From: a virus
Length of the DNA stretch: 64,000 nucleotides
IMG/VR virus record: IMGVR_UViG_3300045988_054218
Strand: one strand, 5' to 3'
Shown: positions 25,433 through 46,008 of the stretch, in pieces
Numbering within the stretch: position 1 is the stretch's first letter
Layout of the letters: every line of letters begins with the position of its first letter
Position numbers and translations under genes: made by a program
The notes under the pieces: generated by a model
What the model was told of the DNA's origin: nothing
Databases searched by the model: none
What the model saw: only the letters and a program-made list of their open reading frames with translations

Positions 25433-25460
25433 AGTCCTTTTCCTCCTTTAACACCTATAT

Positions 25461-25505
25461 AACAAAATAAAGGCTCTTGAGAATTAGTATCCTCAAGAGC
25501 CTTTT
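25461..25505 (-). terminator. Rho-independent terminator upstream of the tape measure gene
   Basis: AAGGCTCTTGAG-loop-CTCAAGAGCCTT stem with a T-run on the minus strand. Confidence 0.7.
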
Positions 25506-25541
25506 AATTCTCTACTTAATCTGAGAATTTAATTAGATTAC

Positions 25542-26075
25542 TTAATCTTTTCCAACCACATCTTTGATTACGGCCAGAGTCTCTAGATTCTCACCATTCT
25601 TAATCTTGTCTAAAATTTCAGTAATCTGTGAATCTAATCCACCTGCATTTGCTGTCATAGCCTGAATAATACCAGCTGCAGAAGAATTATATCTAGCAAT
25701 ATCGCTAACTGTGTCATTCACGAGTTCCTTCATAAACTCGATTTCATCCTCTGGAATAGTAGAAATAATTTGGTCAATCACGCCATTTTCTTCCAAAAGA
25801 TCATAAGTCTTAGAAACCTCTGCCATTTGTTTCTCTGTAAAAGTGATATTTGCATACCACTTACATACAGCAATAGAGAAATAAACCTCAATTCTTACCG
25901 GACTAAAACAGCCTGTCATGTCATCAAGAGCATGATTAACAATAAACTGAATAAATTCCGCTTTTTCATCAACAGGAAGATAATTGCGGATTTCAAGCGT
26001 AATATCGTCATTAAGCTGGCAGTTAGTAGTAATTTTCTTAGCCTTTAGTCCCAGCTTAGTAAAAGTCATTTTCAT
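25542..26075 (-). CDS. Tail assembly chaperone-like protein (177 aa)
   Basis: Complete TAG-free ORF with a TAA stop. Acidic, and lies immediately upstream of the tape measure gene (positional call). Confidence 0.55.
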   Translation of the reverse strand: MKMTFTKLGLKAKKITTNCQLNDDITLEIRNYLPVDEKAEFIQFIVNHALDDMTGCFSPVRIEVYFSIAVCKWYANITFTEKQMAEVSKTYDLLEENGVIDQIISTIPEDEIEFMKELVNDTVSDIARYNSSAAGIIQAMTANAGGLDSQITEILDKIKNGENLETLAVIKDVVGKD

Positions 26076-26108
26076 AGGTATTAACTCCTTTAACTCATTT
26101 ATATTTTA

Positions 26109-26137
26109 ATTATACTAGAAAAAAAATCTTTTGTCAA
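26109..26137 (-). promoter_or_regulatory. Internal sigma70/sigmaA-type promoter (TTGACA-17-TATAAT) in the late module
   Basis: The minus strand reads TTGACAAAAGATTTTTTTTCTAGTATAAT, about 30 nt upstream of the SD of 25542-26075. Confidence 0.55.
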
Positions 26138-26142
26138 GTTTA

Positions 26143-27702
26143 TTAAAATAAGGATTTTAATATATTTGAGTTTAAACTAGCAGAAATAGTCAATGTATTA
26201 ATTACATCTCTAACCATCTGGCTACGTACATTAGCGGCTTCAATATCGGGTGCCCATTCTGGCTTACCGTCCGCAGCGACAAAGCTATTATCTATTTTAG
26301 AATCAGAGGTAGAGAAACCACGAATCTCAGTTGATAATCCTTTTAAAGTATTCGCGCAAATTCTATTTACAATACTTACAATAGAATAAATCTTGCCATT
26401 ATACATTAAAAATTGCGCTCTATCTAAGCTGCCGATAGGAGAGCCTCCTGACACTAACTACTCTCCAGAGCCGCTAATCCACTCATTGAAAAAAGACGCG
26501 GCAATAGTAGATCGGATAGCATTATAGGCTTGATAAAATCCGCCTTTACGGCCTCCGCCACTTAATCTATGGGCGATAATATTATACGCATATTGCTATC
26601 TATCTGGCGGCTCGTTCTCTAAAAAAGTTCTTAGCGGAGTTCTACTAACAATATGGATATTTTTAGATTTAGCAGATTGCCATTTAATTGAAGCATTAGT
26701 AGCAATCTCAATGGTAGCTGTAGTACCATTCTATAGAGTAACCCCAAGATTAAATAATCCATTAGAGATAATATCTACTTTAGCTGTACGACCGGATTGA
26801 GCACCAACCGCAGTTCCAGATTGCTTAGTAGTAGGAATAGTACCTTTATCCCAAGTTAATTTACCACCAGATGATGCAATCAAAGAATCAAATGCCTAAT
26901 CTGCATTATTTGAAATTTCGAATAGTACATTTTTCATCATTCGCTCTGCTAAAGGTTCACCAATAGCTCTAGAGAAGATATTAGCAATAGTAGAGGCAAA
27001 ACTTTGAGTAGAAACAGAGCCATTGATAGATAGATTTTTAGCCGCAGTACTCAAATATCCTATAACTTGTGAAGCAATTCCAATCGTATTTAATGATACT
27101 AAAGATACCACATCATTATAAGCAGCCTTACCCTCAAATACTTTCTGTAAAGCTGCGAATGCTCTCAATTCACTCTTGTTTGGTGTAGCGTTTACAAGAT
27201 CTAATGCTTGTTTAATGTAGTCAAAAAACTTAGAAGCATCGTCTACCGGACCGTTAAGTAGCATAGAATTATACTAACTTGAAATATTCGTGACAGCTTC
27301 TTCATACGACCCACCATCTATAACGCTGCTGTACTTCTCCATGAGTAGATTGTTCATAGCTGCCGCAATACTATCAAGAGTTTCCTCCATAAGAGGGCCT
27401 TCGCTTAAAGCTTTAATAATCTATACACTAGATCTCGCAGCCGTGGTATCTTGATTCATCTGCGCTATTAAAGCTTGAGCCTGCGCAGCAGATGCGGCTC
27501 CACTGGCTTTCATATCATCAAGAATAAGCTAGGTCTTATATTTATACCAAGCCGCGGCAGGTGCGGCTAGGTGCTATGCTGACTATTGTTTATAGTGGAT
27601 ATAAAAGTGATCGACGTATGCATCAACATCGATCGGCATACTCATGTCACCAAGGTTATGTTTCTTTTGATGCATGGATGCGGATTTTGGTATTCTAGCC
27701 AT
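26143..27702 (-). CDS. Structural-module protein of unknown role (519 aa, TAG-recoded)
   Basis: ATG at 27702 follows GGAGGTAAAGGAGAT. ORF-track pieces 26896-27264 and 26143-26454 are in one frame. TAA at 26143. Confidence 0.7.
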
Positions 27703-27720
27703 ATCTCCTTTACCTCCAGA

Positions 27721-27755
27721 TAAAAAGAAAAAGGGAGGACATTAAGTCCTCCCTT
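27721..27755 (-). terminator. Rho-independent terminator after the major tail gene
   Basis: AAGGGAGGAC-loop-GTCCTCCCTT stem followed by TTTTTCTTTTT on the minus strand. Confidence 0.7.
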
Positions 27756-27869
27756 AAACTCAGATTAAGTCCTCGTCTTCATCTTCTACAAAGCTCAGTC
27801 GCTTAGCAGCAGATTGGGTTCGGACCGGTTCTGTATTTTTTAACTCCGCGTCATGTCCCTCCGGAGTGT

Positions 27870-28811
27870 TTATTCCCCCACTGCTGTGCAGGGCTTTCTG
27901 CTCTCCTCAGATGCAGCGACGTCGTCCATAACAACCTGGATAGCAGCAAGAACTTTCTTGGTAAGATCGAACTTGGTATAGCCAGGGAATGCGTCAACCA
28001 CAAAGCTGAAAGTAGAAGGATCACCGCTAGATGCCATAGAGAAGGTGAAGTTAGACTGAACCTTACCATTAGGAATTACAAATTCCGCAGGCATATCAAG
28101 ACCAGTATTCTCATCACGGAACAGAGTAGAAGCCTCAATATAGAAGTTCTGACCCTTAATCTCTGGGGTGATTTCGATTAGCATTGTGTTAGAAACCTTT
28201 TTGATGTAGTAGTCAACAAGAACAACCTTGCCAACTTCAAGATCCTTATGTCCAGCTGCGCCATCAGCATAGCAGGTAATAGTGGTCTTACCATCGCCAT
28301 AAACAACAGCGGCAGGAACGCAAGGCTCAACATCAACGGTACCAAAATCGCTTAACACCATGCAGAAGATATCAGCATTAGCATGCTTATAATCAGCTGC
28401 GGCACCAGTACCAGGAGTACCAGTAGCAACCCCATTCCAGCAAGCGATTTCTGGAATTACGATAGTGTTCTTAGTGTCTACCTTAACCTGAGAAGTCATG
28501 TGAACATAAACAGGCTTGTTTTCAGTAGCTTTTGCTAGACCAGCACCAGAAAGAATAGCCAAGCTCTCTGGACTAATAAGAGCATCTTCCATATTGAAGG
28601 TGAGAGTACGCTCGCCTTCCCATGCGATCAAACGAATGTTACCACGTCCACCAGTTGCATAGACTGTGGTAGAAGCGCCCTCAAGGCTAGAAGTCTTTAG
28701 AGAGTCGAAATAAATGACAGGCTCATTCTTATAGAAAGTGCGGCCGCCGAGAGTCATCTTAGACTTAGCACGGAATGCTACGTCGCAAATTTCGCGTACG
28801 CCAAATCTCAT
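27870..28811 (-). CDS. Major tail (tube) protein candidate (313 aa, TAG-free, GC-richer)
   Basis: Complete ORF following AAATAAGGAGGAAATATAC. It has its own terminator, composition typical of highly expressed genes, and lies between the connector genes and the chaperone/tape measure genes. Confidence 0.6.
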   Translation of the reverse strand: MRFGVREICDVAFRAKSKMTLGGRTFYKNEPVIYFDSLKTSSLEGASTTVYATGGRGNIRLIAWEGERTLTFNMEDALISPESLAILSGAGLAKATENKPVYVHMTSQVKVDTKNTIVIPEIACWNGVATGTPGTGAAADYKHANADIFCMVLSDFGTVDVEPCVPAAVVYGDGKTTITCYADGAAGHKDLEVGKVVLVDYYIKKVSNTMLIEITPEIKGQNFYIEASTLFRDENTGLDMPAEFVIPNGKVQSNFTFSMASSGDPSTFSFVVDAFPGYTKFDLTKKVLAAIQVVMDDVAASEESRKPCTAVGE

Positions 28812-28825
28812 AGTATATTTCCTCC

Positions 28826-29572
28826 TTATTTATTGGGATGTAATTCTTTCATCCAAGATTCAACTTGTTTATCGGGCTTCCCGCCCGCAAGTCTAACTTT
28901 AAGGTCGGTATCCCATTCAACATAACCCGTATATCTCTCCATTAAATCAAATAATTGAAACATATTTAATGCTCCACATTCACTTAATGAAATAACTTTG
29001 GCTACTGTTAAAATAGAAATATAACGAGTTAGAACGCTTTCATTACTTGCTCCTTTCTATTCAGCAACCTTGCGGCGATTCCGCATGATTTTATCCGCGA
29101 TTTCTTTAGCTCGATCATTGGCAGGATTATAAATAACATTCTCGCCCTAAAACAAACTATTTACGCATAAAACCTAGCGTATTACACTCTAGAAAATAGT
29201 AAAGTTACTATCATCTATCATTACTGTTTTAGCGGTCTCACCAACGATAGTAAGAATAATGCTATTCTTAGTAATCATTGCTGTATACTCAGGAAAAAGT
29301 AACTTAAGCAAAGTAATCAAAGCAATCTTTTTTTCTTTATCCTACGATTGCTCTAATACTTTCATCAATACTTGAAAATTAGTCAAAGACGCTAAAAGAG
29401 TTTCGTCCTATACTAATGACTCTTTCTCTAAACAGATATATTGAACAGCCATAAAAAACTGCTACTCACCCATGTAAGCTATATCTTTAATGGTCGGGAC
29501 ATGGACAGTTAATTGTAATTCAGGAATAGGAATATCAATCCCGGCCATTAAAGCTAGTCTATAATCAGCCAT
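28826..29572 (-). CDS. Head-tail/tail-completion module protein (248 aa, TAG-recoded)
   Basis: Not in the ORF track. ATG at 29572; hand translation MADYRLALMAGIDIPIPELQLTVHVPTIKDIAYMGE-TAG-TAG-FF... runs to TAA at 28826-28828, which overlaps the next SD. Confidence 0.65.
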
Positions 29573-30104
29573 TTACAGGATTTTTCTAGTCCTCATGACC
29601 TCTAACAGCTAGATAGGTCAGAGACACTCCCGCAAATTCTTCGTTATATACATAGGGGGTAGCAGATACAAACTCAAGTTCACCGATGCCGGTTAAGTGA
29701 GTTTTATCAAGCATGGCATCTATCTCTCCCGCGACCCTATAAGGGCGTAGCTCAAAATCGCCTAAATCCCAGTTGTCATAGTGACAAATAATATCAATAC
29801 CAAATGTATTATCTCGATATTCTGGATTCGAAGCGTTTCTAATGACAGTGCCATAAGTCAATCTAATATAGGTTTTTTCTTTACTATCAATCTTAATCTT
29901 TGGGACAGATGAAATCTGGTGACTAGTAAATAGTTCCTTAATCTGTTCTCCGTTTGGTAAAGGTTGAGATTGCCAGTCTCTTGTTTCATAAACTAATAAT
30001 CTCAAGAGATTAGGATTTGATAGAATACGGTCGATAATAATTGCCGCGTCTTTAGGCATACCCAATAAACTAGACTTAGGGTACTCATATGAATTATGTT
30101 TCAT
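29565..30104 (-). CDS. Head-tail joining/tail terminator-like protein (179 aa)
   Basis: ORF-track 29586-30104 continues across TAG at 29586 to TGA at 29565-29567, overlapping the next start codon. Confidence 0.65.
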
Positions 30105-30115
30105 GCGCGATCACC

Positions 30116-31105
30116 TCAATACAATGATTCAACTACAACGACCTTTTCTCTTACATCATTACCCTTTGTCCATTGTAATGTGAATTGACCACTTGTAGTT
30201 TTATTCCAAATCACTGTAGCTGTCTAATTTCCAGTTACCTGTAAACAGGCAGGTACATTTTCAAGTATCTTCCATTCTCCGTCCGCAATATCGACGGAGT
30301 AAGTAGCCGCAATTTTCGGCTTTATAAAAGTCTCACCGATAATCTTGCTATCAGGAGTTGGATTAGTAGGTTCAAAGACCAAACCATCCTTCATCTCTTT
30401 CTCAAGGTCATCAGTGGTATCATTCCAGTAATTCTCTTCCGCATTGACTTCGATAATATTTTTCATACTAATCGAATCTGGAGCCTCAACTCTCCAGCAC
30501 TTCCCCGCAAAGATAAATTCTGAATATCTATCAAAAGCATGAAGTGTTTTTTCATTACGCGGCATAAGAATATTTAAACTTAGATTAGGGATATCGATTC
30601 TCTATTGATTTTTTTGAATAGAGTTGATTTGTGTCTCTACTGGGCCTCGAATGGCTGCATAAGTAGAACACCAATTACCATCCTAATCTTTAAAACGAAT
30701 CTTATATCTACAGCGTCTTATTTCTCCTCTAAAGTAGGCATCTTCAGTAATCTCTTGAGTATAGATCAGCCAATATGTATTTGTTTTCTTCCATTCAAAT
30801 ACATCACCGGGTTCATAACCATGCTCATAATCAATAGAAACGATCTTGTCGTCGTAATCTTGCTTTACCTTATCTGGATTGATAAGAGCGCGAATCTCTC
30901 CATAAACCCCCATGTCCACATCTATACCAGAGGGGTCAATCTCAAGCACTTCTGTGTTTCTCTAAACCATCTCAATCGAAGCGGCTTGATAAGAATATAA
31001 CAAAGCTCTATGCAAAGTGCGTTGTTTATCCTTAATCATGCGGTCTTCCTGATGAATACCGCCTTGCCACTCGAATCTCTTCCGCATTAATTCTAAATTA
31101 ATCAT
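30116..31105 (-). CDS. Virion structural protein (329 aa, TAG-recoded)
   Basis: ATG at 31105. ORF-track pieces 30683-30949 and 30224-30565 are in the same frame. Hand-translated through TAG codons to TGA at 30116-30118. Contains ...AAIRGPVETQINSIQKN... (conserved-looking motif; no family assigned). Confidence 0.7.
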
Positions 31106-31400
31106 TGCGAATCACCTGAGTTAATAGGTCGATACATCTAAATACAGTCTTTCTATAAATCATAAAATCATTACAAGCATCTGAGGTTAAGCCCTCTAAC
31201 TTTGATAATAAAATTAATCCTTCTACTTTATCCTTGTAAATATGCACCAAACCAGAAATTTCTTCTAGCATAGTTTTTAGATGTGTCTCCCAATCTTCTC
31301 CATTTTCACGCATAGGAATTAACTTCCATAGTTGATTGATAAGTCTCTTCATATCTTGGTCGATAGTAGTCATTGGAAAGTTAATATTATACTTATCCAT
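31098..31400 (-). CDS. Small head-tail connector-module protein (100 aa)
   Basis: ATG at 31400 overlaps the upstream stop (ATGGATAA). Lies within ORF-track 31098-31460. TAA stop. Confidence 0.6.
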   Translation of the reverse strand: MDKYNINFPMTTIDQDMKRLINQLWKLIPMRENGEDWETHLKTMLEEISGLVHIYKDKVEGLILLSKLEGLTSDACNDFMIYRKTVFRCIDLLTQVIRND

Positions 31401-31896
31401 CAAAGGTACTCGTTTCTCTAAGAGTAGACCAGTTAGACTTAATAGAGCCGTTATTATCAATCATCTTTCTGCGTTTATAGAGGCGTTGCATATGATGCGC
31501 CTAACGCTCAGCCTCTTTCTTAAGTTCCATTAATTTAGCGAGATGGTTTGCTTGAGAGGTCATTTTGAAATCACTACCAGAGTATTTCATTCTCGTCTGT
31601 TCAACAGACGCCACTTGACGCTGAAGCCAGGTATTATACATTAGTAGCGCAAGAATGTTAATTTCTTCGGAAGTTAAATGGCAATTAAAAGTCTCACCAT
31701 TCACGTCATAATCATAGAGTGGAAAACGCGGAAATTCAAATCCTGGGATGGCATCAAGTAAGATATTTAGCAAATCTTTCTTGGTGTCTTCCTCAGTCCA
31801 CTCCATATACATATCATCGGTAATCTTACCGAAGAAACGATTGTATATATCTTCAAAGGGTGTAGGATCCCCTTGAATTGGATACTTTTCATCCAT
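31393..31896 (-). CDS. Head-tail adaptor/connector-like protein (167 aa)
   Basis: ORF-track 31501-31896 continues across TAG at 31501 to TAA at 31393-31395. Confidence 0.65.
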
Positions 31897-31910
31897 GGGG
31901 ATTACCTCCC

Positions 31911-32456
31911 TTATTCTTTAGCCTCCACGGGCTTTTTAATTGTAGTGGTAGAAGAACGGCGTCCGGTTGCCGCAGGAGTGCTAATAACCTTTTCGGCCTT
32001 CTTCTCGTTCTCGTCAGGTTTCATATTTTCGATAGCTTTGCTCACATCAAAACCAAGCTGGGCTTTAATAGCCTCTCTCTTATCGTAGTCATTTAATGGT
32101 TTGCTAACAGCGTACTGTTTGATAAGATCTTTTGTGCCATTAGGAGCAAAATCAAGAGCATCCTTAAATTCATCAATAGAACAAGATTCCATCCAGCTGG
32201 GAATCTGTTCCTCAGTCAGATAATACTCTGGTTCTACATCCTTATTAAGTAAATGACGAAGAATTTCATCATCATTAATAAAGAGATAATTATAGATAAG
32301 CTCTTTTCCGCCGCCCATCATAGACAGAGAATCTAACTCATCAACCTTGATATGCTTAGTTTCATGAGGAGCGAACTCTCTGCGGACGCCCAATTCGGGG
32401 ATATTATAAATAACAAAGCCTGCGCTCTTGTTAGTGACATTACACTGGTCTTTCAT
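31911..32456 (-). CDS. Hypothetical head-module protein (181 aa)
   Basis: Complete ORF with a TAA stop, directly downstream of the major capsid gene. Confidence 0.7.
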   Translation of the reverse strand: MKDQCNVTNKSAGFVIYNIPELGVRREFAPHETKHIKVDELDSLSMMGGGKELIYNYLFINDDEILRHLLNKDVEPEYYLTEEQIPSWMESCSIDEFKDALDFAPNGTKDLIKQYAVSKPLNDYDKREAIKAQLGFDVSKAIENMKPDENEKKAEKVISTPAATGRRSSTTTIKKPVEAKE

Positions 32457-32527
32457 AATTAAAAACTCCTTTTTCTCAAATAATGAATTAAAGGGGATAG
32501 GGATATATCCCTATCCCCTCGAATAGT

Positions 32528-33556
32528 TTATTGAATTACGTCAAGCTTGCCCTGAAGCTGAGTATCAACGTAAGAGAAGATGTTGTTAGTCATCATAACG
32601 CCAACGCCAACCTTGCGGTAGACCTGGATGTCACGAGACCAGTCATCATTGTCATTACGCTCACGAACGTGAGTGGTACCCTCGAAAGCAACCTTAACAG
32701 GCTTCTCGCCAGCGCCAGAAGGAATAACCCAAGCATAGCCAGGATCGATTACCTTACGGCTGTTGGTTTCATCCTCAAGAGTCTGAGGAAGAATTACAAC
32801 ACGAACACCCTTATAGTTAGCAAGATAACCGGTGTTCCAACGCTCGTTACGAATTTCATCAGAGATCCAGCCCTCAGCAGGAACAATCTTTACTGCGAAC
32901 TCACGAGTGCAGTAAATAGTAGGAGTGCCATAGGCACTTGCGGTAGTAACAAGACGGTCAAGACCAGTCTCATCGAAACCAGCAGCGCTTACACGGTTAG
33001 CAGCGGGAAGCTGATCAACTGCGCCCATAAGAGCCTGAGCGATCTCACGATAAATGAGTTCGTCCATGCCATCCATGATGATCTGAGTGAGTTCAGCGAA
33101 GTTCACACGACCGTCAAGGAACTCTTCGAAGCCAATCTGAGCGGCTCCGCCGATAGCACTGGTACCAACTTCGAAGCTCTCAGAACCGAGCTTGAAGGTC
33201 TCGTATACGCCGGCAAGACCGACACGAGTGATGAACTGCTTAGCGCGAGTCTTACCAGTTCTACGCTTAAAGACGGGGCGATCGCCCTGAGCAAATGTCT
33301 GAATCTCAGCGAACTGACCATAAGCATTGATCAAACGGTTAGGAACGATATCATCCATGGTCTGCTCCATGAGAGAGAATACTAGACGCTTATTCTGCTC
33401 ATAAAGCTCTTCAGTGCCAACAAGAGCATTGAGTTCACTACGAAGAGTCTCGTTCATAGCGTTGTAAGAGAGATTCTCGTTATTATAAGAGAAGTTAGTA
33501 GAAGGAGTAGCATTAGCTACATTCTTCATTAACTGTAGTAAATTAGCCTTATCCAT
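32528..33556 (-). CDS. Major capsid protein (342 aa, TAG-free, GC-richer)
   Basis: Complete ORF following AAAGGAGGGTTAAAATA. Its size and its position after the scaffold and decoration genes fit an HK97-type capsid protein. Its composition is strong enough to create a 284-aa antisense shadow ORF. Confidence 0.75.
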   Translation of the reverse strand: MDKANLLQLMKNVANATPSTNFSYNNENLSYNAMNETLRSELNALVGTEELYEQNKRLVFSLMEQTMDDIVPNRLINAYGQFAEIQTFAQGDRPVFKRRTGKTRAKQFITRVGLAGVYETFKLGSESFEVGTSAIGGAAQIGFEEFLDGRVNFAELTQIIMDGMDELIYREIAQALMGAVDQLPAANRVSAAGFDETGLDRLVTTASAYGTPTIYCTREFAVKIVPAEGWISDEIRNERWNTGYLANYKGVRVVILPQTLEDETNSRKVIDPGYAWVIPSGAGEKPVKVAFEGTTHVRERNDNDDWSRDIQVYRKVGVGVMMTNNIFSYVDTQLQGKLDVIQ

Positions 33557-33574
33557 TATTTTAACCCTCCTTTA

Positions 33575-34255
33575 TCAACCAATGCGCTGAACTTTAACGC
33601 CAGGCTGTAAGTCAGGCATGGTGTAAACCTTTACAACCACGAACTTAGGATCTTCGTCTCCGCCTGTTGCGGTTTTACCTTCATCCTTAGTCAGATAACC
33701 GTCAGCACCAATTTTAAGCTGATCACCAACACTTAAAGAGCCAGCTTCAGCCTTAATTGTATTAGTAGTCCAAATATCACCATTAGGAACAGCGATAACA
33801 CGAGGAACCATCTTAGTGCCATCTGGCATTAACTGAGGATAGTTAAAAGTCTCAACTTCCTTCTTGAAAGCAGCGTTGCTACCCTCACGGACAGCCTCAC
33901 CAGTATAATCAAGAACGGTCTTAAGATCGGACTTAGTCTGACCGATTGGGCTATAGACACGAGCATTGTAGCGGTCCTTAATCATAGCGAAATCAGCATC
34001 AGTCTCGCGATCCTCATAAATCTTTACTTCATTGAAAACCATGCGCCATGGACCTGCACCATCAAAGTCGCAGACACCCTTGGCATAATCGTATTTTACG
34101 AACTGGCCATTCTCAAGTAGCTCAATGCTTGCCGCTGCGGGAAGCTGAGCGTACACCTGGCCATTGCGCTTAGCGGACATATGGTTAGGTTCAACCTGGC
34201 CATATCCGTAAGTTACAAAAGTAGCGTTACCTAAACGCTTTGCACTCTTAGCCAT
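33575..34255 (-). CDS. Head decoration/auxiliary capsid protein (226 aa, TAG-free)
   Basis: Complete ORF between the scaffold and major capsid genes, the position of gpD in lambda. Confidence 0.55.
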   Translation of the reverse strand: MAKSAKRLGNATFVTYGYGQVEPNHMSAKRNGQVYAQLPAAASIELLENGQFVKYDYAKGVCDFDGAGPWRMVFNEVKIYEDRETDADFAMIKDRYNARVYSPIGQTKSDLKTVLDYTGEAVREGSNAAFKKEVETFNYPQLMPDGTKMVPRVIAVPNGDIWTTNTIKAEAGSLSVGDQLKIGADGYLTKDEGKTATGGDEDPKFVVVKVYTMPDLQPGVKVQRIG

Positions 34256-34270
34256 ATTATTTAATCCTCC

Positions 34271-35551
34271 TTATAGCTTTTTCGCGGTTTCGCGAACTGC
34301 CTTAATCCACTCTGGGACATTATCATCAGCGGGATTTTCAAGATTAAACAATCCCTTGGGCTGGTTATCGTCCTGTTCATTGTTGTTATTAAGGTTAAAG
34401 TTGACCTTGTTGCGAACGCAGAGAATAGACAGCTTCGCTTCAATGTCATCTAAAGAATAAGTATCAATATGCTCAACGACATCCTTCTTGTCGTCGTCGC
34501 TCAGCATATAGAAACCATCAATCATGCTCTGCTTTTCCTTGCGGTCCGCAGTCAGCTTGAACTCTCTGAGAGAAGTTACCTCTGTCTCAAGGTTGCTCTT
34601 CTCCTGCTTAAGAGTCTCAAATTCGCCCTGAAGAGTCTCATACTTACCAAGTAACTCAGTATACTCAGTTACTTCATCAAGATTGTACTTCTTCTTAGGC
34701 TCTTCCTTGTTATTATCGGCAGGTTTGTTGTCGCCGTCCTTTGGCTTATTATCTTCTGGAGCAGGATTGCCTTTTGGATTCTTCTTATTCTCGTCCTCAG
34801 GCTGCTTCTTTGCTTCGAAGTTAGGATCCTCGGGGTTGCCGAGAGTCTTTTTATTCTCGTCCATAGTCTCGTGAGAGCCTCCTTTATTCAAAGTTTTCTG
34901 TAATTCAGTTAGCATAGAGAACATCGTAGTTCTAAGTTCTTCCACGTTCTCTAGGGAGAATTCAGTCTTGAATTGTGCGCCCTCAAAACATGGCTCAACT
35001 GATTCTCCGAGAATACAAAGTTTTTCAATCAATGCTTCATTGTAAATGAAAAATCTACTACCCGAATTATTATCTTTTGCCCAAAAACCTTTTTGAGTTT
35101 CTTTGTTCAGTTCCATAGACTGATTGTTGCCATGCTCGAATAGTCGCTGAGATTCAGGGTAAGCGCTCGTCCAGATGTAACATTCAGTTACAAGATACTC
35201 ACGCTCAACGCCTTCGTCATCAAACTTCTGGAACCAAACTTTTGCGTCCGTGGGGACGAAACCGTATGGTTTAGTGGTGTCAAGAACCTCGATATTTCCG
35301 CCACCCCGCAGAGAAATCTCTTTGTTGTGTCCTTCAAAATCGTTTGTTGCTTGATTAAAATAGCCAACAACAGGAGAACCTGGTAATTTTCTGCCCATCT
35401 CTGTTGCAACTTTCTTAGTGATAACAGTTCCATTTCTGTTGGGATTTTGTCCTACATAGCAGACTTTCACCTAACACTTACTGATTAAAGGAGATATTTC
35501 AGTCGCATTGATGAATTCCAATGTGTTAGCAATAGGAATACTAATATGCAA
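34271..35551 (-). CDS. Scaffolding protein with an N-terminal globular domain (426 aa, one TAG at codon 27)
   Basis: TTG at 35551 follows AAGGAGGGATAGAAC and joins across TAG at 35471-35473 to ORF-track 34271-35470. The central region is a charged, low-complexity coiled coil (KPKDGDNKPADNNKEEPKK..LQGEFETLKQEKSNLETEV). Confidence 0.7.
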
Positions 35552-35564
35552 GTTCTATCCCTCC

Positions 35565-37169
35565 TTATGACATGCTTTCACGGTTAGCAATCGTCTTATC
35601 ACTCTTTGTTTCATCAGATTTCTCTGGGCGACCAGACTATTTCTGTTCCGTTACTTTAGTTGTGCTTGAACTTGTCTACTTATTCTAAGAGTTATTCTAA
35701 TCATTCTAATCTTTTTTGACCAAGCTTCCACTCATTGTACTACTCATCATGGGCGGAATCATAATCTCAGATAGATGTAGAACTTCATTTTCAAATGTTA
35801 AAGTAGCTAAAATACTAGATTGAGAATGACCAAGAGCAATTTGCGGCAACATCTTAGGATAGCCCATTTGCGCGTGTTCTTTATACAACTTAGCCAATTC
35901 CTTGTAATTAAATTGCGTTGTCTCTAGCATTGATACTCTAAACTCGTAGTGACCTTTGCGATTAAACTTTTCTACTATCTTATTCAGCAAATTAGCAAAC
36001 TGTAAAGGCAGTTCTCTAATACTGGCTTCATCTGTTAAGATAGCATTAGTTACAGCTAAGTTGCCGTCCGCATTGAATAAGTTACGAGAAATACCAGCAT
36101 TATTAAATACTGTACGCTCAACTTTTTCAAGGTCATCTGTCGTAGTATTGGAATTACTATCCTTGGTATCAATCTTCTCAATATCAGCAAAAGTAGTAAG
36201 CACATCCACGCCAACCGCGCGCTTAAGCATCGCAACCGCATTGTTATGGATATCTCTTGCTTCATCTACATCGAAGATTAAGTCACCATTCTTATCAAGT
36301 GGTAACTTCTGAATAATAATTTTTAATAGCTATTGCATTGTCTTCTATCTATCTAACTCTTGAGCTTGGTCAAGATCGATAATGGAAGGAATAACTCCAA
36401 CAAGAGGTGGAAAACAACTATCGTTTAATCCCAACTTCACCGAAACCGCGGGATCGAGAGGATACCAGCAGCTTAAATCTCCTGGATAATCCCCCTTAAG
36501 CTTGCCTTGTTTATATAAGACATAGCCTTGCTAAACATCCTTGGGGAATGTTTTTAGAATTGCCATTCTCTATTGAATATTAGAAAAATAGGCATCAAAG
36601 AACTAAAGATTTAGTTCTACGATTGGATCAACTCCAGAGTAGTAGCGATTACGACAATATGAAGCGGGAAGTTTTTGGATACCAAATCGATCTCCGAAAT
36701 CCACGAAGATACCATAGTAGACACCATCTTTCATAATATCGAGAGCAATATTTCCGCATAGTCGCTTAACGTCAGATCTATCAAGGTACAGTAGTACCTT
36801 TGAGAAGTCACCAAGAATCTTATTTTCTTTTTCCTTAGATACATCTGTAAAGTAAGGAGTTACATACCAGTCATATCTATAAAGAGTAGCTAAGTATTTA
36901 CATAATCTGTAATAAATACCGCTAGACTCAAAGAAATATTCAGAAATCTCTCTTAGTGTCTTGTAATCATGTCGGTAAATAGCATTGAGAACAAAGCCCT
37001 TATCGCCGTAGTTTGGGTTGACCTTCTTGTAAGTGCCAAGATTTACGAGTGCATTATCCACGGTACGAATGCCCACCCGCATTTTAGCATAATCACGTGG
37101 AGCCATATCTTCTTCGCCCATTAGATTAAAGCCTTTATCTCGTATGTCTTGTTGTCTGCGCTTAAGCAA
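35565..37169 (-). CDS. Portal protein (534 aa, TAG-recoded)
   Basis: TTG at 37169 follows AAGGAGGTGACAAACC. ORF-track pieces 36603-37169 and 35706-36230 are in one frame. The C-terminal tail was hand-translated across 5 TAG codons to TAA at 35565-35567. Lies between the terminase and scaffold genes. Confidence 0.75.
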
Positions 37170-37183
37170 GGTTTGTCACCTCC

Positions 37184-37540
37184 TTAATACCCGGCCTTCT
37201 GCATTATATAGTCATACGTTAATATATTTTCATCCGTATATGGAATCTCTATTAAAGTAAGACCTTTCAATGCGCAGAATCTCCTCTTTTGATTATCATT
37301 ATATTTCTATTGATACAATCCTCTATTGCCGCCAAATTTACTGACTGCTTGATAATGCTATTTTCCTTGATACTCAATCAAGAAATCTAGATTGCCATCG
37401 TCATCAAAAACGGCAAAGTCAAAACGTAGAGGACGTCCACTAGGGGCTTTCAATCCCGCGAATTCATACTCTTCTTTAAAGTTAATATCATTCGCTTCTA
37501 GGATCTCATGTATCTTAATTTCTCCTCTTGATGCTCGCAT
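37184..37540 (-). CDS. Small restriction-endonuclease-fold (Vsr/DUF559-like) nuclease candidate (118 aa)
   Basis: ORF-track 37358-37540 continues across two TAG codons to TAA at 37184-37186. Contains ...RFDFAVFDDDGNLDFLIEYQGK-TAG-HY..., which resembles a D...E.K nuclease core. Confidence 0.5.
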
Positions 37541-37606
37541 AGATTAAATCACATCCTCTATCTATTATTAAAAAATCTAATAGGGCTATTATTTAACTAT
37601 GCCCAC

Positions 37607-39346
37607 TTAACTAATAAACATAAAATCAGCGAAGCGACCTTTCTTTCTCTTGCGCTTACTATCTTCTTCTTGCTTGATATAATATAGACCGTATTCAAAA
37701 GCTGAGAATTTATCCTTTGTAATAGATTTATTAGCTTGCTTCAAGATAATATTAACGCCTTCATTTTCCTCGCGCAAATTCAACATTTCATCTCGTAGAA
37801 TAGAAGTATAAGTGAAAGGTTGTAAATATGCCGCTCTCTCTTCTGGTTTCATTGCTTGACCCTTTTTAGTTCCTAACAACTTGTTCTTCGCAATTCTTTC
37901 GTCAATTAAGAATTTCACCTTGCCAGCCCGCATTTGCGTCTATGCATTACTGTGAGCTTCGGTGTTAATTGGCGCATTAGCTTTAATCTCATAAATAGCA
38001 TCATATTCTGTTCTATCAGTTCTATACTTCTTATACTCTCCATCATCATCATTCTATACGCTAAAATCAGGGAAGAAATCATCTGTCTCAGGGTCAACTT
38101 GAGACTTGACCATATAGTCCATTAGACCAGCGCCCAAACCATTACCGTCGATAACAACGGTCTTAGCCTTGAACTAATAATATAACTTTTTAATTTTAAT
38201 TGCCTAATCTTCGAAGTGCTCGTCGTCCATTGTAAACATATTAACCAATGATTTAATTGCAGGTCCCTAAGACTGTGGTGTAACTTTGAAAACACAAATT
38301 ACACTTTGACATTTTTTACGTCCAACGTCCACAGACAAAACATAATAAGCTCTATCAGAAGAACGACCAGAAGCTTCATATTCTGGTTGTTGTAATTTAC
38401 GATTACGGTCAAATACTTCTCCATTGAAGAACGCATCCTCAACTGTACCGCTCCAACGAGATTCATACTCTCGATCAAAAGAAGCCTCATTGAAGGTGCC
38501 ATCCTATTTTAGCTCTTGAACAAAGTTTTTACTTTGTAGACCAACTAATACAGGAATACGCCAAGTACCGCCCATAACAATCGCTTTCTCTGGATCAAGA
38601 ACCATACGAATCAAGAGCTGAATCAACTTATTGTACGGGAAAGTATTCTTCCAGCCTGCGGTGGTGACATAGATTTGACTCTTATTCAAAGTTTCTGCCT
38701 CTTGAACAGTACCATCCATACACTCACGATCAATGTTCATTAAAGGAATAAGAACTTCGTTCAAGATGGTGCCATCGACACCAACACATTCCTCAATTAG
38801 GCCTCCGTGACGACGCTTACCACGAGAACTCTCTCTTGCAGCAACGTTATCAAAGTAAGAACCATTCTTAAAGATATACTTACAATAGTCTTTACCTTCT
38901 TGAGTCTTACCTCTTCGCCAGTCAATTTCTCTTTCAAACGCAGGAATCTTCTAACAAATTTCCTAAACCTTTTCTTTGGCAATGCCAGCAGCCTGTTCCT
39001 TACCACCAGAAGTAACGAACAATTTACTTCTGGGATATAAAATACATCTACACATTAGTACCATGATAGATAAGAAAGACTTAGAATAAGCACGCGGGAA
39101 TACCATGTATACATATTTATAGCGCATAGCCGCCCGCAAGAACACTCTTTGATAGAAGAAGAAATTCAATTCCTTCTTACGAGTAAGATCTCCGCCAGTC
39201 TAGAGGAAATCTACGAAAATATCAGGATATTCTCTCCAAAAAGCAATGTATTGACGCGCAGCAGGAATGATTGCCCGCACGCGCTCTTCAGATAGGCCAA
39301 TCTTCTTATTTTTATTGGAGAGGTTTAATAAATCAGCTAATGCCAT
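37607..39346 (-). CDS. terL: Terminase large subunit (579 aa, TAG-recoded)
   Basis: ATG at 39346 follows GGAGGTGAAATAA. ORF-track pieces 38504-38764 and 37607-37933 are in the same frame. Has a deviant Walker A-like motif, FPRAYSKSF, and a C-terminal nuclease-like part. TAA at 37607. Confidence 0.85.
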
Positions 39347-40522
39347 TTATTTCACCTCCCGCATATATTCTTTATCCTTCTCAGCTTCCTATTGTTTCAT
39401 TTCTTCAAACTCTTCATAGTCAGCATCAGTTAATACTTTATCTTCTGGATAATCGTAAATCTCATTATCTTCTTCATCGCCGCCATCAACGTCAATCTTA
39501 GCTTCTCTTTCTTTATCTTGAGCAATAGCTCTAACAGATGCGTCAATCATGTTGCCAAGATTCATTTCTTCTGTAACAAGAGAGTAAGTATAGTGTTGAA
39601 GGTCTTGTAAAACTTTATCTACCTTATCCATCGGTCCATCGGTGTAATAACGAGGAATAAATCCTTCACGCTCGCAAATTGTAACTAATTCACCAATAGA
39701 ATCTACAAATTCACCAGATTCAGCTTTATTCTGCGCGGCTGTGAGCTTAGCGCTCTTCATCAAGCTATCATACATCTTGATCATCTTCTGCGCACCATCG
39801 ACATCGCCGCAGTCTAGAAGCTAGTTAGATTTCAATGAAGTCTTACAAATCATGATAAGAGTATCTTTCATACCCGCTCCTTGAATATCATATGAAGCCA
39901 TCATATCATTATATAATTGCTCCAATCGCACCCATTCCTCTGGGCGATATCCTCGACCCCACTTAAGTCTCAACATCACTTTATCTTCTTCGGTAAGTTC
40001 GTCTGAAAAATCATCATCAGCCTCTGAAGGATCGTAATATTCAGGAGTACCTACAGCCTCTTGTGGCTCAGTTAAAATTTTTGGCTTAGGCGGAGTTCTA
40101 TCCGTCGCAAGCTCAGTTTCAATTTCTTCGCCAGTCATACCTTGCGCTTTCATTTGATTAATCTTACGCATACGCTGCTCTTCTTCAAGCGCTTCGGTAT
40201 CTGCCCAAGAATACTAACTCCACTATTTAAGTTTCATTTTAGATAAGTAACGGCCAATAATAGTTAAGCCAGTTACTTTTTTAGGATCTTTACCATATTT
40301 CTCCAGTAAAGCATCCCATTCTTCTTTAATATAAGGCACATCAATTTCTTGTAAAATCCATTTATACGTTTCTGGGTCCCAGTTATCGACGTGCATGGTT
40401 AAACATTTCTTGCAAATATCCATCTTTCCATCTGGTGGATATTTCTCTACGTTCTTAGAAGTGTAGAATTCACTATCATTCATAGTCTTTCCGCACTTCT
40501 TGCAAAAATGCTGTCCAGCCAT
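39347..40522 (-). CDS. Putative terminase small subunit / packaging accessory protein with an N-terminal zinc ribbon (391 aa)
   Basis: ORF-track pieces 40223-40531, 39821-40171 and 39389-39784 share one frame and join across TAG. The stop TAA abuts the terL ATG. CKKCGK...CKKC motif. The functional call is positional. Confidence 0.5.
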
Positions 40523-40527
40523 ACGAA

Positions 40528-44055: not shown

Positions 44056-44331
44056 TCTGAAATCAAAAATGGTTTTCGAGATTTTTATGGCGTGGGAGAA
44101 CGAGTTTGTGAAAATTTTCACGCTTTTTCCCGAAATACACGCCCCCGTACTGTCGCACTTCATCACGCTAAAGCACTACAGTTAAACAGCTACCCCTACT
44201 TTAGTTAGCTAAAGCGTCTGTCGCTATTATTATGTATCGCGCGCGCGTAAAGAGGAATTGGTCAATCTGCACAACAGGATCGGCACTCACTTGTGCAAAT
44301 TGACGAAACGCAGAAAATTGCAAAAAAGTTG

Positions 44332-45913: not shown

Positions 45914-45914
45914 A

Positions 45915-46006: not shown

Positions 46007-46008
46007 CG

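What the first reader, a model, noticed from the sequence alone, without database searches (positions are those of the whole stretch)
27870..35551. Two gene classes: GC-richer TAG-free genes and AT-rich TAG-containing genes, with the most abundant virion proteins in the TAG-free class
The major capsid (32528-33556), decoration (33575-34255), major tail (27870-28811) and chaperone-like (25542-26075) genes contain no TAG, and the scaffold has one. The capsid, decoration and major tail genes are visibly GC-richer than their neighbours; the capsid gene even generates a 284-aa antisense shadow ORF.

Adjacent low-copy structural genes carry a TAG every 30-100 codons. The same split recurs at 44-63 kb. 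GC-richer TAG-free genes include 44510-46776, 47703-49055, 50872-54858, 57894-58679, 59002-59553 and 61208-62729. They alternate with AT-rich genes, several of which carry TAG (46867-47299, 56211-56495, 63829-). The GC-richer class also prefers a different SD context (CAAAAGAAAGGAAG, against AAGGAGG in the late AT-rich genes).

Possible explanations, which I cannot separate from sequence alone:
- selection against leaky suppression in very highly expressed genes;
- a set of genes that must be translatable before the code switch;
- recent acquisition from standard-code relatives.
Basis: partly seen in the sequence, partly recalled or inferred. Interest (0 to 1): 0.65.

Follow-up and report, generated by a model that had tools for sequence, protein, structure and literature searches.

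The report
Amber-free capsid and early phage genes
In a gut phage that reads the stop codon TAG as glutamine, the genes switched on first and the few genes for the most abundant virion proteins avoid TAG, most likely because reading TAG through a phage suppressor tRNA is unavailable early and costly at high output; this refines a known pattern rather than revealing a new system.

Summary
The 44-63 kb half is mis-annotated, and "two classes" is really three.

Class A, the bulk late genes: GC3 about 0.30, 1.31 TAG per 100 codons, Poisson-uniform.

Class B, the capsid gene, its upstream neighbour, the scaffold-like gene, 31911-32456 and the major tail gene: 1 TAG in 1,665 codons when TAG-free 25542-26075 is counted with them (21.7 expected). 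Their codon bias looks like translational selection.

Class C, about 27 small early genes behind about 20 consensus sigma-A promoters: GC3 0.43-0.77 and 1 TAG in 3,111 codons.

They are strings of small genes and promoter/terminator cassettes.

In 11 diverged TAG-recoded relatives the class B orthologues stay TAG-free, even where they use CAA freely. Standard-code relatives carry the same bias. Recent acquisition is therefore refuted.

Best reading: TAG is a cheap but inferior Gln codon, decoded by a phage tRNA-CUA whose gene lies just beyond the window in near-identical relatives. It is excluded from early genes by timing and purged from the highest-output genes by cost.

The window belongs to the known phAss-1/EF1 phage group. 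Interest is modest.

The parts
3482..41571 (-). Late (structural) gene block read with TAG = Gln. 26 genes; 20 of them carry TAG at a uniform 1.31 per 100 codons.
   Evidence: ORF lengths jump only when TAG is read as sense, e.g. a 2,902-aa tape measure with 31 TAG. 14 of 53 TAG sites align to majority-Gln columns in standard-code relatives, against a 4.1% background.
32528..33556 (-). Major capsid protein gene. 0 TAG; Gln codons CAA 1 / CAG 15; GC3 0.46.
   Evidence: phrog_4088. 51% identical to the phAss-1 protein and 37% to the Enterococcus phage EF1 protein; distant Bacillus phage hits are annotated major capsid protein. The AF2 model is poor (pLDDT 50.7), but all top Foldseek hits are HK97-fold capsids or encapsulins. 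TAG-free in nearly all 42 recoded relatives.
33575..34255 (-). Gene between the scaffold-like gene and the capsid gene. 0 TAG; Gln CAA 0 / CAG 9. The 'decoration' label is unverified; it is probably an abundant head protein.
   Evidence: Only hypothetical-protein homologues. Codon bias and TAG absence are conserved in all tiers.
34271..35551 (-). Scaffold-like coiled-coil protein gene. 1 TAG; Gln CAA 4 / CAG 10.
   Evidence: phrog_3313; sub-threshold coiled-coil matches (HALZ, ZapB, Fungal_TACC) at residues 296-344; counts.
31911..32456 (-). Gene just downstream of the capsid gene. 0 TAG; Gln CAA 0 / CAG 4. TAG-free in almost all recoded relatives.
27870..28811 (-). Major tail (tube) protein gene. 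0 TAG; GC3 0.41. Followed by a strong terminator-like hairpin at 27755-27731.
   Evidence: phrog_2729 virion structural protein. Homologues are annotated major tail or tail tube protein in Bacillus phages. Terminator. TAG-free in relatives.
25542..26075 (-). Small gene directly upstream of the tape measure gene (chaperone position). TAG-free in all lineages but not GC-rich (GC3 0.30). It has its own perfect TTGACA-17-TATAAT promoter-like site at 26137-26109.
35565..37169 (-). Portal gene, 10 TAG. An example of the TAG-using low-copy class.
   Evidence: phrog_2739, E = 5e-82. TAG sits at columns that are invariant Gln in 35 standard-code relatives.
37607..39346 (-). Large terminase-like gene, 9 TAG.
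   Evidence: phrog_15503 and phrog_24618. TAG at conserved Gln columns.
40528..41571 (-). Sigma-factor-like gene at the head of the late block. 5 TAG here and 2-11 TAG in every recoded relative. A sigma-A-like promoter lies at 41624-41596.
   Evidence: phrog_5767, E = 1.5e-42; promoter; relatives.
44311..55602 (+). Array of about 20 near-perfect sigma-A promoters (TTGACA, 17 nt, TATAAT, mostly with a TG extension). They carry a shared short A-rich leader and a GAAAGG-type SD, and are interspersed with GC-rich terminator hairpins.
   Evidence: Repeat families D1-D3 and D8-D10. 84 promoter-like sites against 40.7 +/- 5.9 in shuffles, and 43 terminator-like sites against 17.4.
44510..62729 (+). 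Early, GC3-rich, TAG-free genes (class C). About 27 small genes with GC3 0.43-0.77, pooled 3,111 codons with 1 TAG. Examples: 44510-44785, 44857-45288, 45494-45913, 50872-51132, 51471-52256 (family unidentified; used as the early-region marker), 52338-52790 (weak, below-cut-off HAD-like match), 53595-53996, 54046-54453, 55663-56118, 57894-58679, 59002-59553, 61479-61961 and 62304-62729.
   Evidence: Orthologues in tier-B relatives keep raised GC3 and 0 TAG.
47069..47299 (+). AT-rich AbrB/MraZ-like gene inside the early region with one TAG. Most relatives carry one TAG at varying Gln positions; a few carry none.
56211..56495 (-). 94-codon antisense-oriented ORF with 8 TAG (8 of its 10 Gln codons). 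Conserved with 3-6 TAG in four close relatives.
   Evidence: No family hit.

Best explanation
What the window is. It holds the late (minus strand, 3.5-41.6 kb) and early (plus strand, 41.6-64 kb) regions of a siphovirus of about 140 kb. The phage belongs to the phAss-1 / Enterococcus-EF1 group and reads TAG as glutamine.

How TAG behaves. TAG acts as a third synonymous Gln codon. It arises from CAG by C-to-T change under the genome's AT pressure. It is decoded by a phage tRNA with anticodon CUA, which lies in a tRNA array a few kb beyond the right edge of the window in near-identical relatives.

Three codon-usage classes follow.
- Class A, the bulk late genes, drifts freely among CAA, TAG and CAG, at 1.3 TAG per 100 codons.
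- Class B is the handful of genes whose products are made in the largest amounts: capsid, its two upstream neighbours, the gene downstream of it, and the tail tube. It is under translational selection for host-optimal codons (C-ending two-fold codons, T/C-ending four-fold codons, AAG/GAG/CAG).
- In class B, TAG is purged more strongly than CAA. Each TAG costs output, either through competition with release factor 1 (giving truncated subunits) or through a limiting suppressor tRNA, and that cost scales with expression.
- 25542-26075, the small gene upstream of the tape measure gene, is also TAG-free but lacks this codon bias. It was pooled with class B in the TAG statistics.
- Class C is the set of small early genes behind host sigma-A promoters. 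They must be read by the unmodified host machinery before the suppressor exists, so they are TAG-free. Their globally raised GC3 is most simply adaptation to the host's tRNA pool, before the phage's own tRNA set appears.

Shown versus inferred. Shown: the three classes, their conservation, TAG = Gln, and the tRNA-CUA in relatives. Inferred: expression levels and timing, leakiness of suppression, and the cause of the early genes' GC3.
For: TAG density in the window
- Class A is uniform at 1.31 TAG per 100 codons. Class B has 1 TAG in 1,665 codons (P = 8e-9). Class C has 1 TAG in 3,111 codons against 40.6 expected.

Conservation across relatives
- All 42 recoded relatives, in four identity tiers (MCP 55-100%), have about 0 TAG in class B orthologues. 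Portal, terminase and others have 1-3.5 per 100 codons.
- In 11 diverged lineages, TAG:CAA is 8:83 in capsid + 33575 + tail tube, against 502:626 in the other late genes (odds ratio 0.12, P = 8e-13). In L042 the figures are 0 TAG and 15 CAA in the abundant genes, against 96 TAG and 59 CAA elsewhere.
- Synonymous sites between the window and tier-B genomes are saturated: four-fold third-position identity is 0.33-0.48 in every class.
- Window CAA/CAG sites have become TAG at 36-40 of about 70 conserved Gln sites in class A, but at only 1-2 of about 28 in class B.

Codon bias
- Class B has the pattern of translational selection, with G-ending four-fold codons avoided. Class C shows a general GC3 rise (CTG, CGG, CCG, TCG up).
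- Standard-code relatives show the same class B bias: CAG fraction 0.8 against 0.3-0.45.
- In Enterococcus phage EF1 the orthologues prefer NNC but CAA/AAA/GAA. The direction of the bias is therefore host-specific.

Context
- TAG = Gln (Babkin 2023).
- A tRNA array with tRNA-CUA lies about 2.9 kb past the 63008 gene's orthologue in 11 of 16 relatives' loci.
- About 20 consensus sigma-A promoters are confined to 44-56 kb.
- The GC3-rich early block is conserved in tier B.

Precedents
- Reassigned stop codons are under-used in highly expressed genes of a ciliate and of Blastocrithidia.
- A crAss-like amber-recoded phage has a TAG-free MCP.
Against: - No expression, timing or read-through data exist for this phage.
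- 'Abundant' rests on annotation. The capsid model is low-confidence, and the 33575 gene's function is unknown.
- The host is unknown: genome hits are whole-phage contigs binned into unrelated MAGs. 'Host-optimal' is therefore inferred from the bias itself and from the EF1 contrast.
- In the window alone, TAG avoidance in class B cannot be told apart from general avoidance of non-CAG codons (0 of 1 and 1 of 8; P = 0.67 and 0.19). The specific effect rests on the relatives.
- 25542-26075 is TAG-free without codon bias, and one lineage (L033) has 3 TAG in its capsid gene.
- Signs expected of costly suppression are weak. Enrichment of A after TAG is modest, and the 5' bias of TAG is not replicated across lineages.
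- Class C's G-ending enrichment is not the class B pattern, so 'host adaptation' of the early genes is less secure.
Confidence: 0.68

Rival explanations
1. Timing only. The capsid, tail-tube and neighbouring genes are TAG-free because they have to be translated before the suppressor tRNA is made, as the early genes do.
For: - TAG-free early genes exist in the same genome.
- 25542-26075 has its own perfect sigma-A-type promoter-like site.
- The tRNA array lies downstream of the early region, so the suppressor may appear only after some delay.
Against: - Class B genes are interleaved, on the same strand and in the same gene run, with TAG-rich genes (portal 10, terminase 9, 28826 with 7).
- No strong sigma-A promoter lies upstream of the capsid cluster.
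- The sigma-like gene at the head of the block itself needs TAG decoding: 5 TAG here and 2-11 in all relatives.
- The class B codon bias predates recoding, because it is present in standard-code relatives.
Confidence: 0.1
2. Recent horizontal acquisition. The TAG-free, GC-richer genes were imported from standard-code, GC-richer phages and have not yet ameliorated.
For: - Composition differs sharply from neighbours.
- A standard-code family member, L041, lies at 69% MCP identity.
Against: - The closest homologues of both classes are in TAG-recoded relatives with the same pattern.
- Identities of MCP, 33575 and the tail tube across tiers parallel those of portal and terminase.
- Four-fold sites are saturated between tiers A and B, yet GC3 stays raised and TAG stays absent.
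- The class B shift avoids G-ending four-fold codons, which a GC-rich donor would not produce.
Confidence: 0.03
3. Base-composition artefact. GC-richer genes simply contain fewer TAG triplets, with no selection on TAG itself.
For: - GC3 and TAG density are negatively correlated.
- In the window, class B uses almost only CAG, so TAG absence is not separable from CAA absence.
Against: - TAG and CAA have the same G+C content, yet TAG:CAA is 8:83 against 502:626 across lineages. In class C it is 1:24 (P = 5e-4).
- 25542-26075 is AT-rich and TAG-free in every lineage.
Confidence: 0.04
4. TAG as a deliberate throttle. In-frame TAGs are kept in low-copy late genes, and in the sigma-like gene, to gate or attenuate their translation. 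This would set virion stoichiometry and timing. Class B is then simply the unthrottled set.
For: - The sigma-like gene behind a sigma-A promoter always carries TAG.
- A 94-codon ORF has 8 TAG.
- Published work finds lysis genes enriched for recoded codons.
Against: - Class A TAG density is Poisson-uniform (P = 0.64).
- TAG positions turn over freely with CAA/CAG between lineages. This looks neutral rather than maintained.
- TAG load per lineage varies several-fold.
Confidence: 0.15
5. The raised GC3 of the early genes has a non-translational cause: GC-biased repair or recombination in the mosaic early region, escape from silencing or cleavage of AT-rich nucleic acid, or avoidance of spurious promoters. 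Their TAG absence is still due to timing.
For: - Class C raises both G- and C-ending codons (CTG, CGG, CCG, TCG), unlike the selection-type pattern of class B.
- The early region shows gene gain and loss among close relatives.
- AT-rich and GC-rich genes alternate gene by gene, and this is conserved.
Against: - Class C shares the NNC and AAG/GAG/CAG preferences of class B (rho = 0.60).
- Early-versus-late codon usage tied to host versus phage tRNAs is a known phage pattern (T4; recalled from the literature, not checked here).
- No direct evidence supports any of these alternatives.
Confidence: 0.3

Closest known systems
Code-15 (TAG to Gln) recoded gut phages with standard-code early genes and recoded late genes (Borges et al. 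2021/2022; dual-coded blocks of Pfennig et al., as cited)
   Same: - TAG is sense in structural genes.
- Early genes are readable in both codes.
- The phage encodes its own suppressor tRNA.
- The genome has low GC and prefers TAA as a stop codon.
   Different: That work emphasised gene families enriched for the recoded codon, mainly lysis genes. The preprint text does not mention capsid genes. Here the notable point is the opposite tail of the distribution: a conserved purge of TAG from the most abundant virion genes inside the recoded module.
[quoted passage not shown] 2023, PMC10607447)
   Same: - MCP 51% identical to phAss-1 and 37% to EF1.
- A tape measure protein of about 2,900-3,200 aa.
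- Related contigs of about 135-148 kb.
- A large tRNA array including tRNA-CUA.
- A mix of recoded and standard-code members.
- The paper lists TerL and the tape measure, but not the MCP, as TAG-containing.
   Different: - This is a different lineage: there is no megablast match in the phage collection.
- The paper does not analyse codon classes or the early-region composition.
Avoidance of reassigned stop codons in highly expressed genes of eukaryotes with variant codes (ciliate PL0344, PMC10553269; Blastocrithidia, PMC12153298)
   Same: - Reassigned codons are under-used in highly expressed genes.
- Highly expressed genes are GC-richer in an AT-rich genome.
- The pattern is interpreted as a translational burden.
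   Different: Those are cellular genomes with adapted release factors. Here the host's RF1 is presumably intact and the decoding tRNA is supplied by the virus during infection, so both timing and competition apply.
Amber-reassigned Crassvirales phage with a TAG-free MCP (bioRxiv 10.64898/2026.08.21.746148)
   Same: It reports a low-amber early domain and a high-amber late domain, and notes that the MCP gene shows no alternative codon usage. It suggests host translational bias as the cause.
   Different: That is a single genome, an unrelated phage order and a passing remark. It has no comparison with CAA or across lineages.
Early versus late codon usage in phage T4 tied to host and phage tRNAs (Cowe and Sharp 1991; Kunisawa 1992; recalled from memory, not checked here)
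   Same: Gene classes have discrete codon usage related to time of expression, and the phage carries its own tRNA set.
   Different: T4 uses the standard code. The GC3 gap here (about 0.30 against 0.43-0.77) is much larger, and it coincides with a code difference.

Membership tests
TAG-to-Gln (code 15) recoded phage | In-frame TAG in conserved, otherwise intact genes | tested here: met
   175 in-frame TAG in 28 called genes. ORF coverage rises from 60 kb to 93 kb when TAG is read as sense.
TAG-to-Gln (code 15) recoded phage | TAG positions correspond to Gln in standard-code homologues | tested here: met
   14 of 53 sites have Gln as the majority residue, against a 4.1% background. Several columns are invariant Gln in 35 relatives.
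TAG-to-Gln (code 15) recoded phage | Phage-encoded suppressor tRNA with anticodon CUA | tested here: met
   There is none in the window. It is present in the tRNA array downstream of the 63008 orthologue in 11 of 16 relatives' loci; those orthologues are 76-100% identical to the window gene.
TAG-to-Gln (code 15) recoded phage | Early genes readable in the standard code | tested here: met
   Class C has 1 TAG in 3,111 codons, behind consensus sigma-A promoters. 'Early' is inferred, not measured.
phAss-1 / EF1 group of large siphoviruses | Homologous MCP, portal and tail genes in the same order, with a very long tape measure gene | tested here: met
   The tape measure protein is 2,902 aa.
phAss-1 / EF1 group of large siphoviruses | Membership of the proposed genus Phassvirus (at least about 70% nucleotide identity, the same synteny, and the 1,665-aa Hoc-like protein) | tested here: not met
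   No megablast match in the phage collection, and MCP identity is only 51%. This is a related lineage, not the genus.
Translational-selection codon bias of highly expressed genes | Bias concentrated in genes for the most abundant products | tested here: inconclusive
   The bias sits in the MCP, the tail tube and their neighbours. Abundance is inferred from annotation only.
Translational-selection codon bias of highly expressed genes | The pattern is codon-specific (NNC; T/C in four-fold boxes), not a general GC rise, and is conserved in orthologues | tested here: met
   The host-specific direction at Gln/Lys/Glu in EF1 is shown.
Translational-selection codon bias of highly expressed genes | Preferred codons match the host's abundant tRNAs or its highly expressed genes | not testable with these tools
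   The host is unknown. Genome hits are phage-sized contigs binned into unrelated MAGs.

The most novel reading that the evidence does not exclude
Amber suppression in this phage group may be substantially leaky. If so, TAG density would work as a built-in translational rheostat.
- Zero TAG in the capsid, tube and scaffold-like genes would give full output.
- One to three TAG per 100 codons would scale down low-copy virion proteins.
- The TAG-containing sigma-like gene behind a host promoter would couple the code switch (arrival of the suppressor tRNA) to the start of late transcription.

The conserved TAG purge would then be the visible footprint of a stoichiometry-and-timing device, rather than only mutation-selection balance.
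Probability: 0.15. Interest if true: 0.6.

Novelty: new member of a known kind. Interest (0 to 1): 0.38.

Why it matters
The result gives comparative, selection-based evidence that reading a reassigned stop codon through a virus-supplied suppressor tRNA is not free. The same genomes that let TAG drift neutrally in low-copy genes keep it out of their highest-output genes, even where they tolerate the equally AT-rich CAA.

This bears on three things:
- how stop-codon recoding spreads through a phage genome;
- gene calling, since mixed-code genomes contain TAG-free genes inside recoded modules;
- the design of recoded or suppressor-dependent phages and hosts.

It also warns that GC-rich stretches in such genomes can be misread as long genes.

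Tried and rejected
- Rfam at gathering threshold and ARAGORN on the window found nothing. This ruled out rRNA, introns or known large RNAs as the cause of the GC-rich 44-55 kb stretch.
- Megablast of the late and early regions against the phage collection gave no match.
- Pfam and NCBIfam gave nothing for the capsid, 33575 and tail tube genes. Sequence searches against the PDB gave nothing.
- The AF2 model of the capsid protein, from a 16-sequence alignment, was poor (pLDDT 50.7). The Foldseek hits to HK97-fold proteins are coherent but weak (best E = 4e-3).
- The genome-collection scan for a host returned only phage-sized contigs binned into unrelated MAGs (Collinsella, Prevotella, Methanobrevibacter and others). 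No host call was possible.
- A profile search for the 51471-52256 gene, used as the early-region marker, did not reach the standard-code relatives. Whether they also have GC3-rich early genes is therefore untested.
- A 5' bias of TAG within genes, seen in the window (17.7% against 8.1% in the first tenth; P = 0.011 for relative position), was not replicated across lineages.
- A single conserved 'regulatory' TAG in the AbrB-like gene was rejected. The TAG sits at different Gln positions in different lineages, at about the neutral expectation.
- Phage tRNAs as the specific explanation for the A-ending codons of class A were not supported. A-ending codons without a phage tRNA are avoided in class B at least as much as those with one.

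Full report
WHAT THE WINDOW IS

The 64-kb window has 39.4% GC, no tRNA gene and no Rfam match. Reading TAG as sense raises the DNA covered by ORFs of at least 100 codons from 60 kb to 93 kb. It also produces a continuous minus-strand gene block from 3,482 to 41,571, including a 2,902-aa tape measure gene with 31 in-frame TAG.

PHROG matches identify these genes:
- portal, 35565-37169;
- a sigma-factor-like gene, 40528-41571;
- an HNH endonuclease, 37184-37540;
- a virion structural protein, 27870-28811.

The capsid gene (32528-33556) is 51% identical to the phAss-1 protein and 37% identical to that of Enterococcus phage EF1. Babkin et al. 2023 describe this group of 133-138 kb gut siphoviruses. 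In it TAG encodes Gln, and the phages carry 28-36 tRNA genes including tRNA-CUA.

My AF2 model of the capsid protein was poor (pLDDT 50.7), but every top Foldseek hit was an HK97-fold capsid or encapsulin. Homologues of 27870-28811 are annotated as major tail or tail tube protein in Bacillus phages. The 'decoration' label for 33575-34255 could not be verified.

At 14 of 53 TAG sites, standard-code relatives have Gln as the majority residue, against a 4.1% background. Several of these columns are invariant Gln. TAG is therefore Gln here too.

CHECK OF THE OBSERVATION: LATE GENES

- The remaining 20 late genes carry 140 TAG in 10,722 codons (1.31 per 100). The scatter is no more than Poisson (P = 0.64).
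- Capsid + 33575 + tail tube have 0 TAG in 881 codons, against 11.5 expected (P = 1e-5).
- Adding 34271, 31911 and 25542 gives 1 TAG in 1,665 codons, against 21.7 expected (P = 8e-9).
- These genes are GC-richer: 0.45-0.47 against 0.31-0.41.
- Their Gln codons are almost all CAG (capsid CAA 1 / CAG 15 / TAG 0). Other late genes use CAA > TAG > CAG.

CHECK OF THE OBSERVATION: 44-63 KB

This part is wrong in detail.
- 44510-46776, 47703-49055, 50872-54858 and 61208-62729 contain 4-26 in-frame TGA and 3-15 TAA.
- The region is really a string of small plus-strand genes of 45-290 aa.
- The genes are separated by a repeated cassette: TTGACA, 17 nt, (TG)TATAAT, then a short A-rich leader with a GAAAGG-type SD. 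GC-rich terminator hairpins also occur.
- Near-perfect sigma-A promoters number about 20 on the plus strand of 44-56 kb. Only a handful lie in the 40 kb of late genes.

The compositional alternation is real. About 27 of these genes have GC3 of 0.43-0.77 and together hold 1 TAG in 3,111 codons (40.6 expected). About 16 AT-rich genes in the same region hold 13 TAG, 8 of them in one ORF.

Over all 73 called genes, GC3 and TAG density correlate negatively (rho = -0.46, P = 4e-5). A two-component GC3 mixture is preferred overall, but not within the late block alone or the early block alone.

THREE CLASSES, NOT TWO

I measured relative synonymous codon usage against the bulk late genes (class A).
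- The abundant virion genes (class B) shift towards NNC in two-fold boxes, towards T- and C-ending codons in four-fold boxes, and towards AAG/GAG/CAG. They avoid A-ending codons and also G-ending four-fold codons (GCG, CCG, ACG). This is the signature of translational selection, not of a GC-richer origin.
- The early genes (class C) show a general GC3 rise that includes CTG, CGG, CCG and TCG.
- The two shifts correlate (rho = 0.60) but are different in kind.

The SD contexts also differ. Class B uses AAGGAGG (6 of 6 have AGGAG), like other late genes. The GAAAGG-type SD belongs to the early promoter-leader cassette (12 of 27 class C genes, 0 of 6 class B genes).

RELATIVES: LATE GENES

A capsid-based scan of viral contigs returned 77 loci with 10-kb flanks. 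Of the 78 loci analysed (these plus phAss-1, L001), 42 are TAG-recoded and 36 use the standard code.
- In every recoded tier (MCP identity at least 90%, 74-80%, 60-73%, below 60%), the orthologues of capsid, 33575, 31911, the tail tube and 25542 hold 0-0.4 TAG per 100 codons. Portal, terminase, 26143 and 28826 hold 1-3.5 per 100.
- The standard-code relatives show the same raised GC3 and CAG preference in capsid, 33575 and the tail tube (CAG fraction about 0.8, against 0.3-0.45). The bias therefore predates recoding.

Taking one genome per diverged lineage (11 lineages below 90% MCP identity), the three abundant genes have TAG:CAA:CAG of 8:83:204. The other late genes have 502:626:229 (odds ratio for TAG versus CAA 0.12, P = 8e-13). 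In L042 the abundant genes use 15 CAA and 0 TAG, while the rest use 59 CAA and 96 TAG. TAG is thus avoided well beyond what base composition or a simple CAG preference would give.

Amino-acid identities of capsid, 33575 and the tail tube across tiers parallel those of portal and terminase.

Between the window and three tier-B genomes:
- third positions of four-fold codons at conserved residues are only 33-48% identical in all classes, i.e. saturated;
- window CAA/CAG sites have become TAG at 36-40 of about 70 conserved Gln sites in class A, but at 1-2 of about 28 in class B.

In Enterococcus phage EF1 (standard code), the capsid and tail tube orthologues have an NNC fraction of 0.47 and 0.45, against 0.12-0.26 in neighbours. 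They prefer CAA/AAA/GAA (capsid CAA 6, CAG 0). The preferred Gln codon is therefore host-specific, as translational selection predicts.

RELATIVES: EARLY GENES

A scan with the early-region marker gene 51471-52256 (no family identified) recovered the early region from the same tier-A and tier-B contigs.
- Orthologues at 55-80% amino-acid identity keep raised GC3. For example, 53595 goes from 0.77 to 0.69, 44510 from 0.64 to 0.66, and 51471-52256 from 0.57 to 0.49. This is set against late-gene GC3 of 0.25-0.30 in those genomes. They also keep 0 TAG.
- With saturated synonymous sites, this is a maintained state, not un-ameliorated foreign DNA.
- I could not reach the early regions of standard-code relatives.

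THE DECODING APPARATUS

A walk from the window's last complete gene (63008-63769) showed a co-oriented array of at least 25 tRNA genes in near-identical contigs. It starts about 2.9 kb downstream and includes a tRNA with anticodon CUA. No tRNA-Gln with anticodon UUG or CUG was seen in the stretch recovered.

The sigma-like gene at the head of the late block sits behind a sigma-A-type promoter-like site. It contains 5 TAG here and 2-11 in every recoded relative.

Both facts argue that late genes, including the capsid gene, are expressed after the code switch. Timing therefore cannot explain why class B is TAG-free.

INTERPRETATION

TAG behaves as a mutationally favoured but inferior Gln codon.
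- In low-copy late genes it drifts neutrally.
- In early genes it is excluded because nothing can read it yet. This is the published model.
- In the highest-output genes it is purged because its cost scales with expression. The cost would come from termination by RF1, truncated subunits, or a limiting suppressor tRNA.
- Acquisition from standard-code phages is refuted.

The cause of the early genes' general GC3 rise is the least secure part. Adaptation to the host tRNA pool before the phage tRNAs appear is the simplest reading. A non-translational cause is not excluded.

COMPARISON WITH WHAT IS KNOWN

- The early/late code split is established.
- Under-use of reassigned stop codons in highly expressed genes is documented in a ciliate and in Blastocrithidia.
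- A 2026 preprint notes in passing that a crAss-like amber-recoded phage has a TAG-free MCP.
- Babkin et al. list TerL and the tape measure, but not the MCP, among TAG-containing genes.

What this analysis adds:
- a quantitative, multi-lineage demonstration, within one phage family, that the purge is specific to TAG;
- evidence that the purge rides on an older codon bias;
- evidence that the virion and early TAG-free sets are different classes.

VERDICT

This is a real, conserved but expected pattern in a member of a known phage group.

Noticed in passing
window 1-2333: A diversity-generating retroelement.
- The variable repeat at 1-89 is the 3' end of a plus-strand gene that runs off the window.
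- The template repeat is at 729-817 and differs from it at 18 positions, all of them adenines in the template.
- The reverse transcriptase gene is at 1119-2333 (phrog_1423, E = 1.7e-83; RVT_1). It carries 10 in-frame TAG.
- ORF 170-682 sits in the Avd position but has no family hit.
   Followed up: partly
window 40528-41624: The sigma-factor-like gene at the head of the late block has 5 TAG (2-11 in all recoded relatives) and sits behind a sigma-A-type promoter-like site. Suppressor tRNA availability could therefore gate late transcription through this protein.
   Followed up: partly
L170 16050-16140 and equivalents in L156-L169 (about 6 kb beyond the window's right end): ARAGORN predicts the tRNA-CUA of close relatives to be 91 nt long, with a long variable arm, a U1-U72 mismatch and G73. 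A more distant relative (L167) has a 75-nt version. A class-II-like shape is odd for a Gln suppressor.
   Followed up: partly
window 56211-56495 (-): A 94-codon ORF, antisense to the early genes, has 8 TAG (8 of its 10 Gln codons). It is conserved with 3-6 TAG in four close relatives and has no family match.
   Followed up: partly
window 45920-46005, 49392-49428, 51146-51231, 53044-53080: A repeated intergenic cassette with two GC-rich hairpins (GGTGGAGAAATCCACC, and CGGCGCGC...GCGCGCCG followed by a T-run).
   Followed up: partly
window 43192-43623 and 42019-42804: A PTH2-type peptidyl-tRNA hydrolase gene (E = 1e-24) and a FolD-like gene sit at the start of the plus-strand block, and both are TAG-free here. 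The FolD orthologue carries 0-6 TAG in tier-B relatives (median 4). A peptidyl-tRNA hydrolase in a suppressor-dependent phage may be relevant to drop-off at TAG.
   Followed up: no
window 47928-48778: Possible frameshift or gene fusion. ORF 47928-48203 continues in another frame as 48047-48778, whose C-terminal part (from 48380) is an AbrB/MazE-like domain.
   Followed up: no
L041 (IMGVR_UViG_3300045988_147563): A standard-code family member (0 TAG in 3,601 aligned codons) with extremely AT-rich late genes (GC3 0.13-0.28). Its MCP identity of 69% places it at the same distance as the recoded lineages. Recoding was therefore gained or lost more than once in this family.
   Followed up: partly
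L114-L154 (genome collection): Whole phage-sized contigs of this family are binned into MAGs labelled Collinsella, Eubacterium, Prevotella, Methanobrevibacter, Succinivibrio and others. These are almost certainly binning artefacts and should not be used for host assignment.
   Followed up: no
window 37184-37540 (-): An HNH homing-endonuclease-like gene lies between the portal and terminase genes. It has 2 TAG, both at columns that are invariant Gln in 35 standard-code relatives.
   Followed up: no
window, all TAG-containing genes: The base after an in-frame TAG is A in 39% of cases, against 27% after CAA/CAG (chi-square P = 0.03). The same direction is seen in 9 of 12 lineages. A 5' bias of TAG seen in the window is not replicated.
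   Followed up: partly
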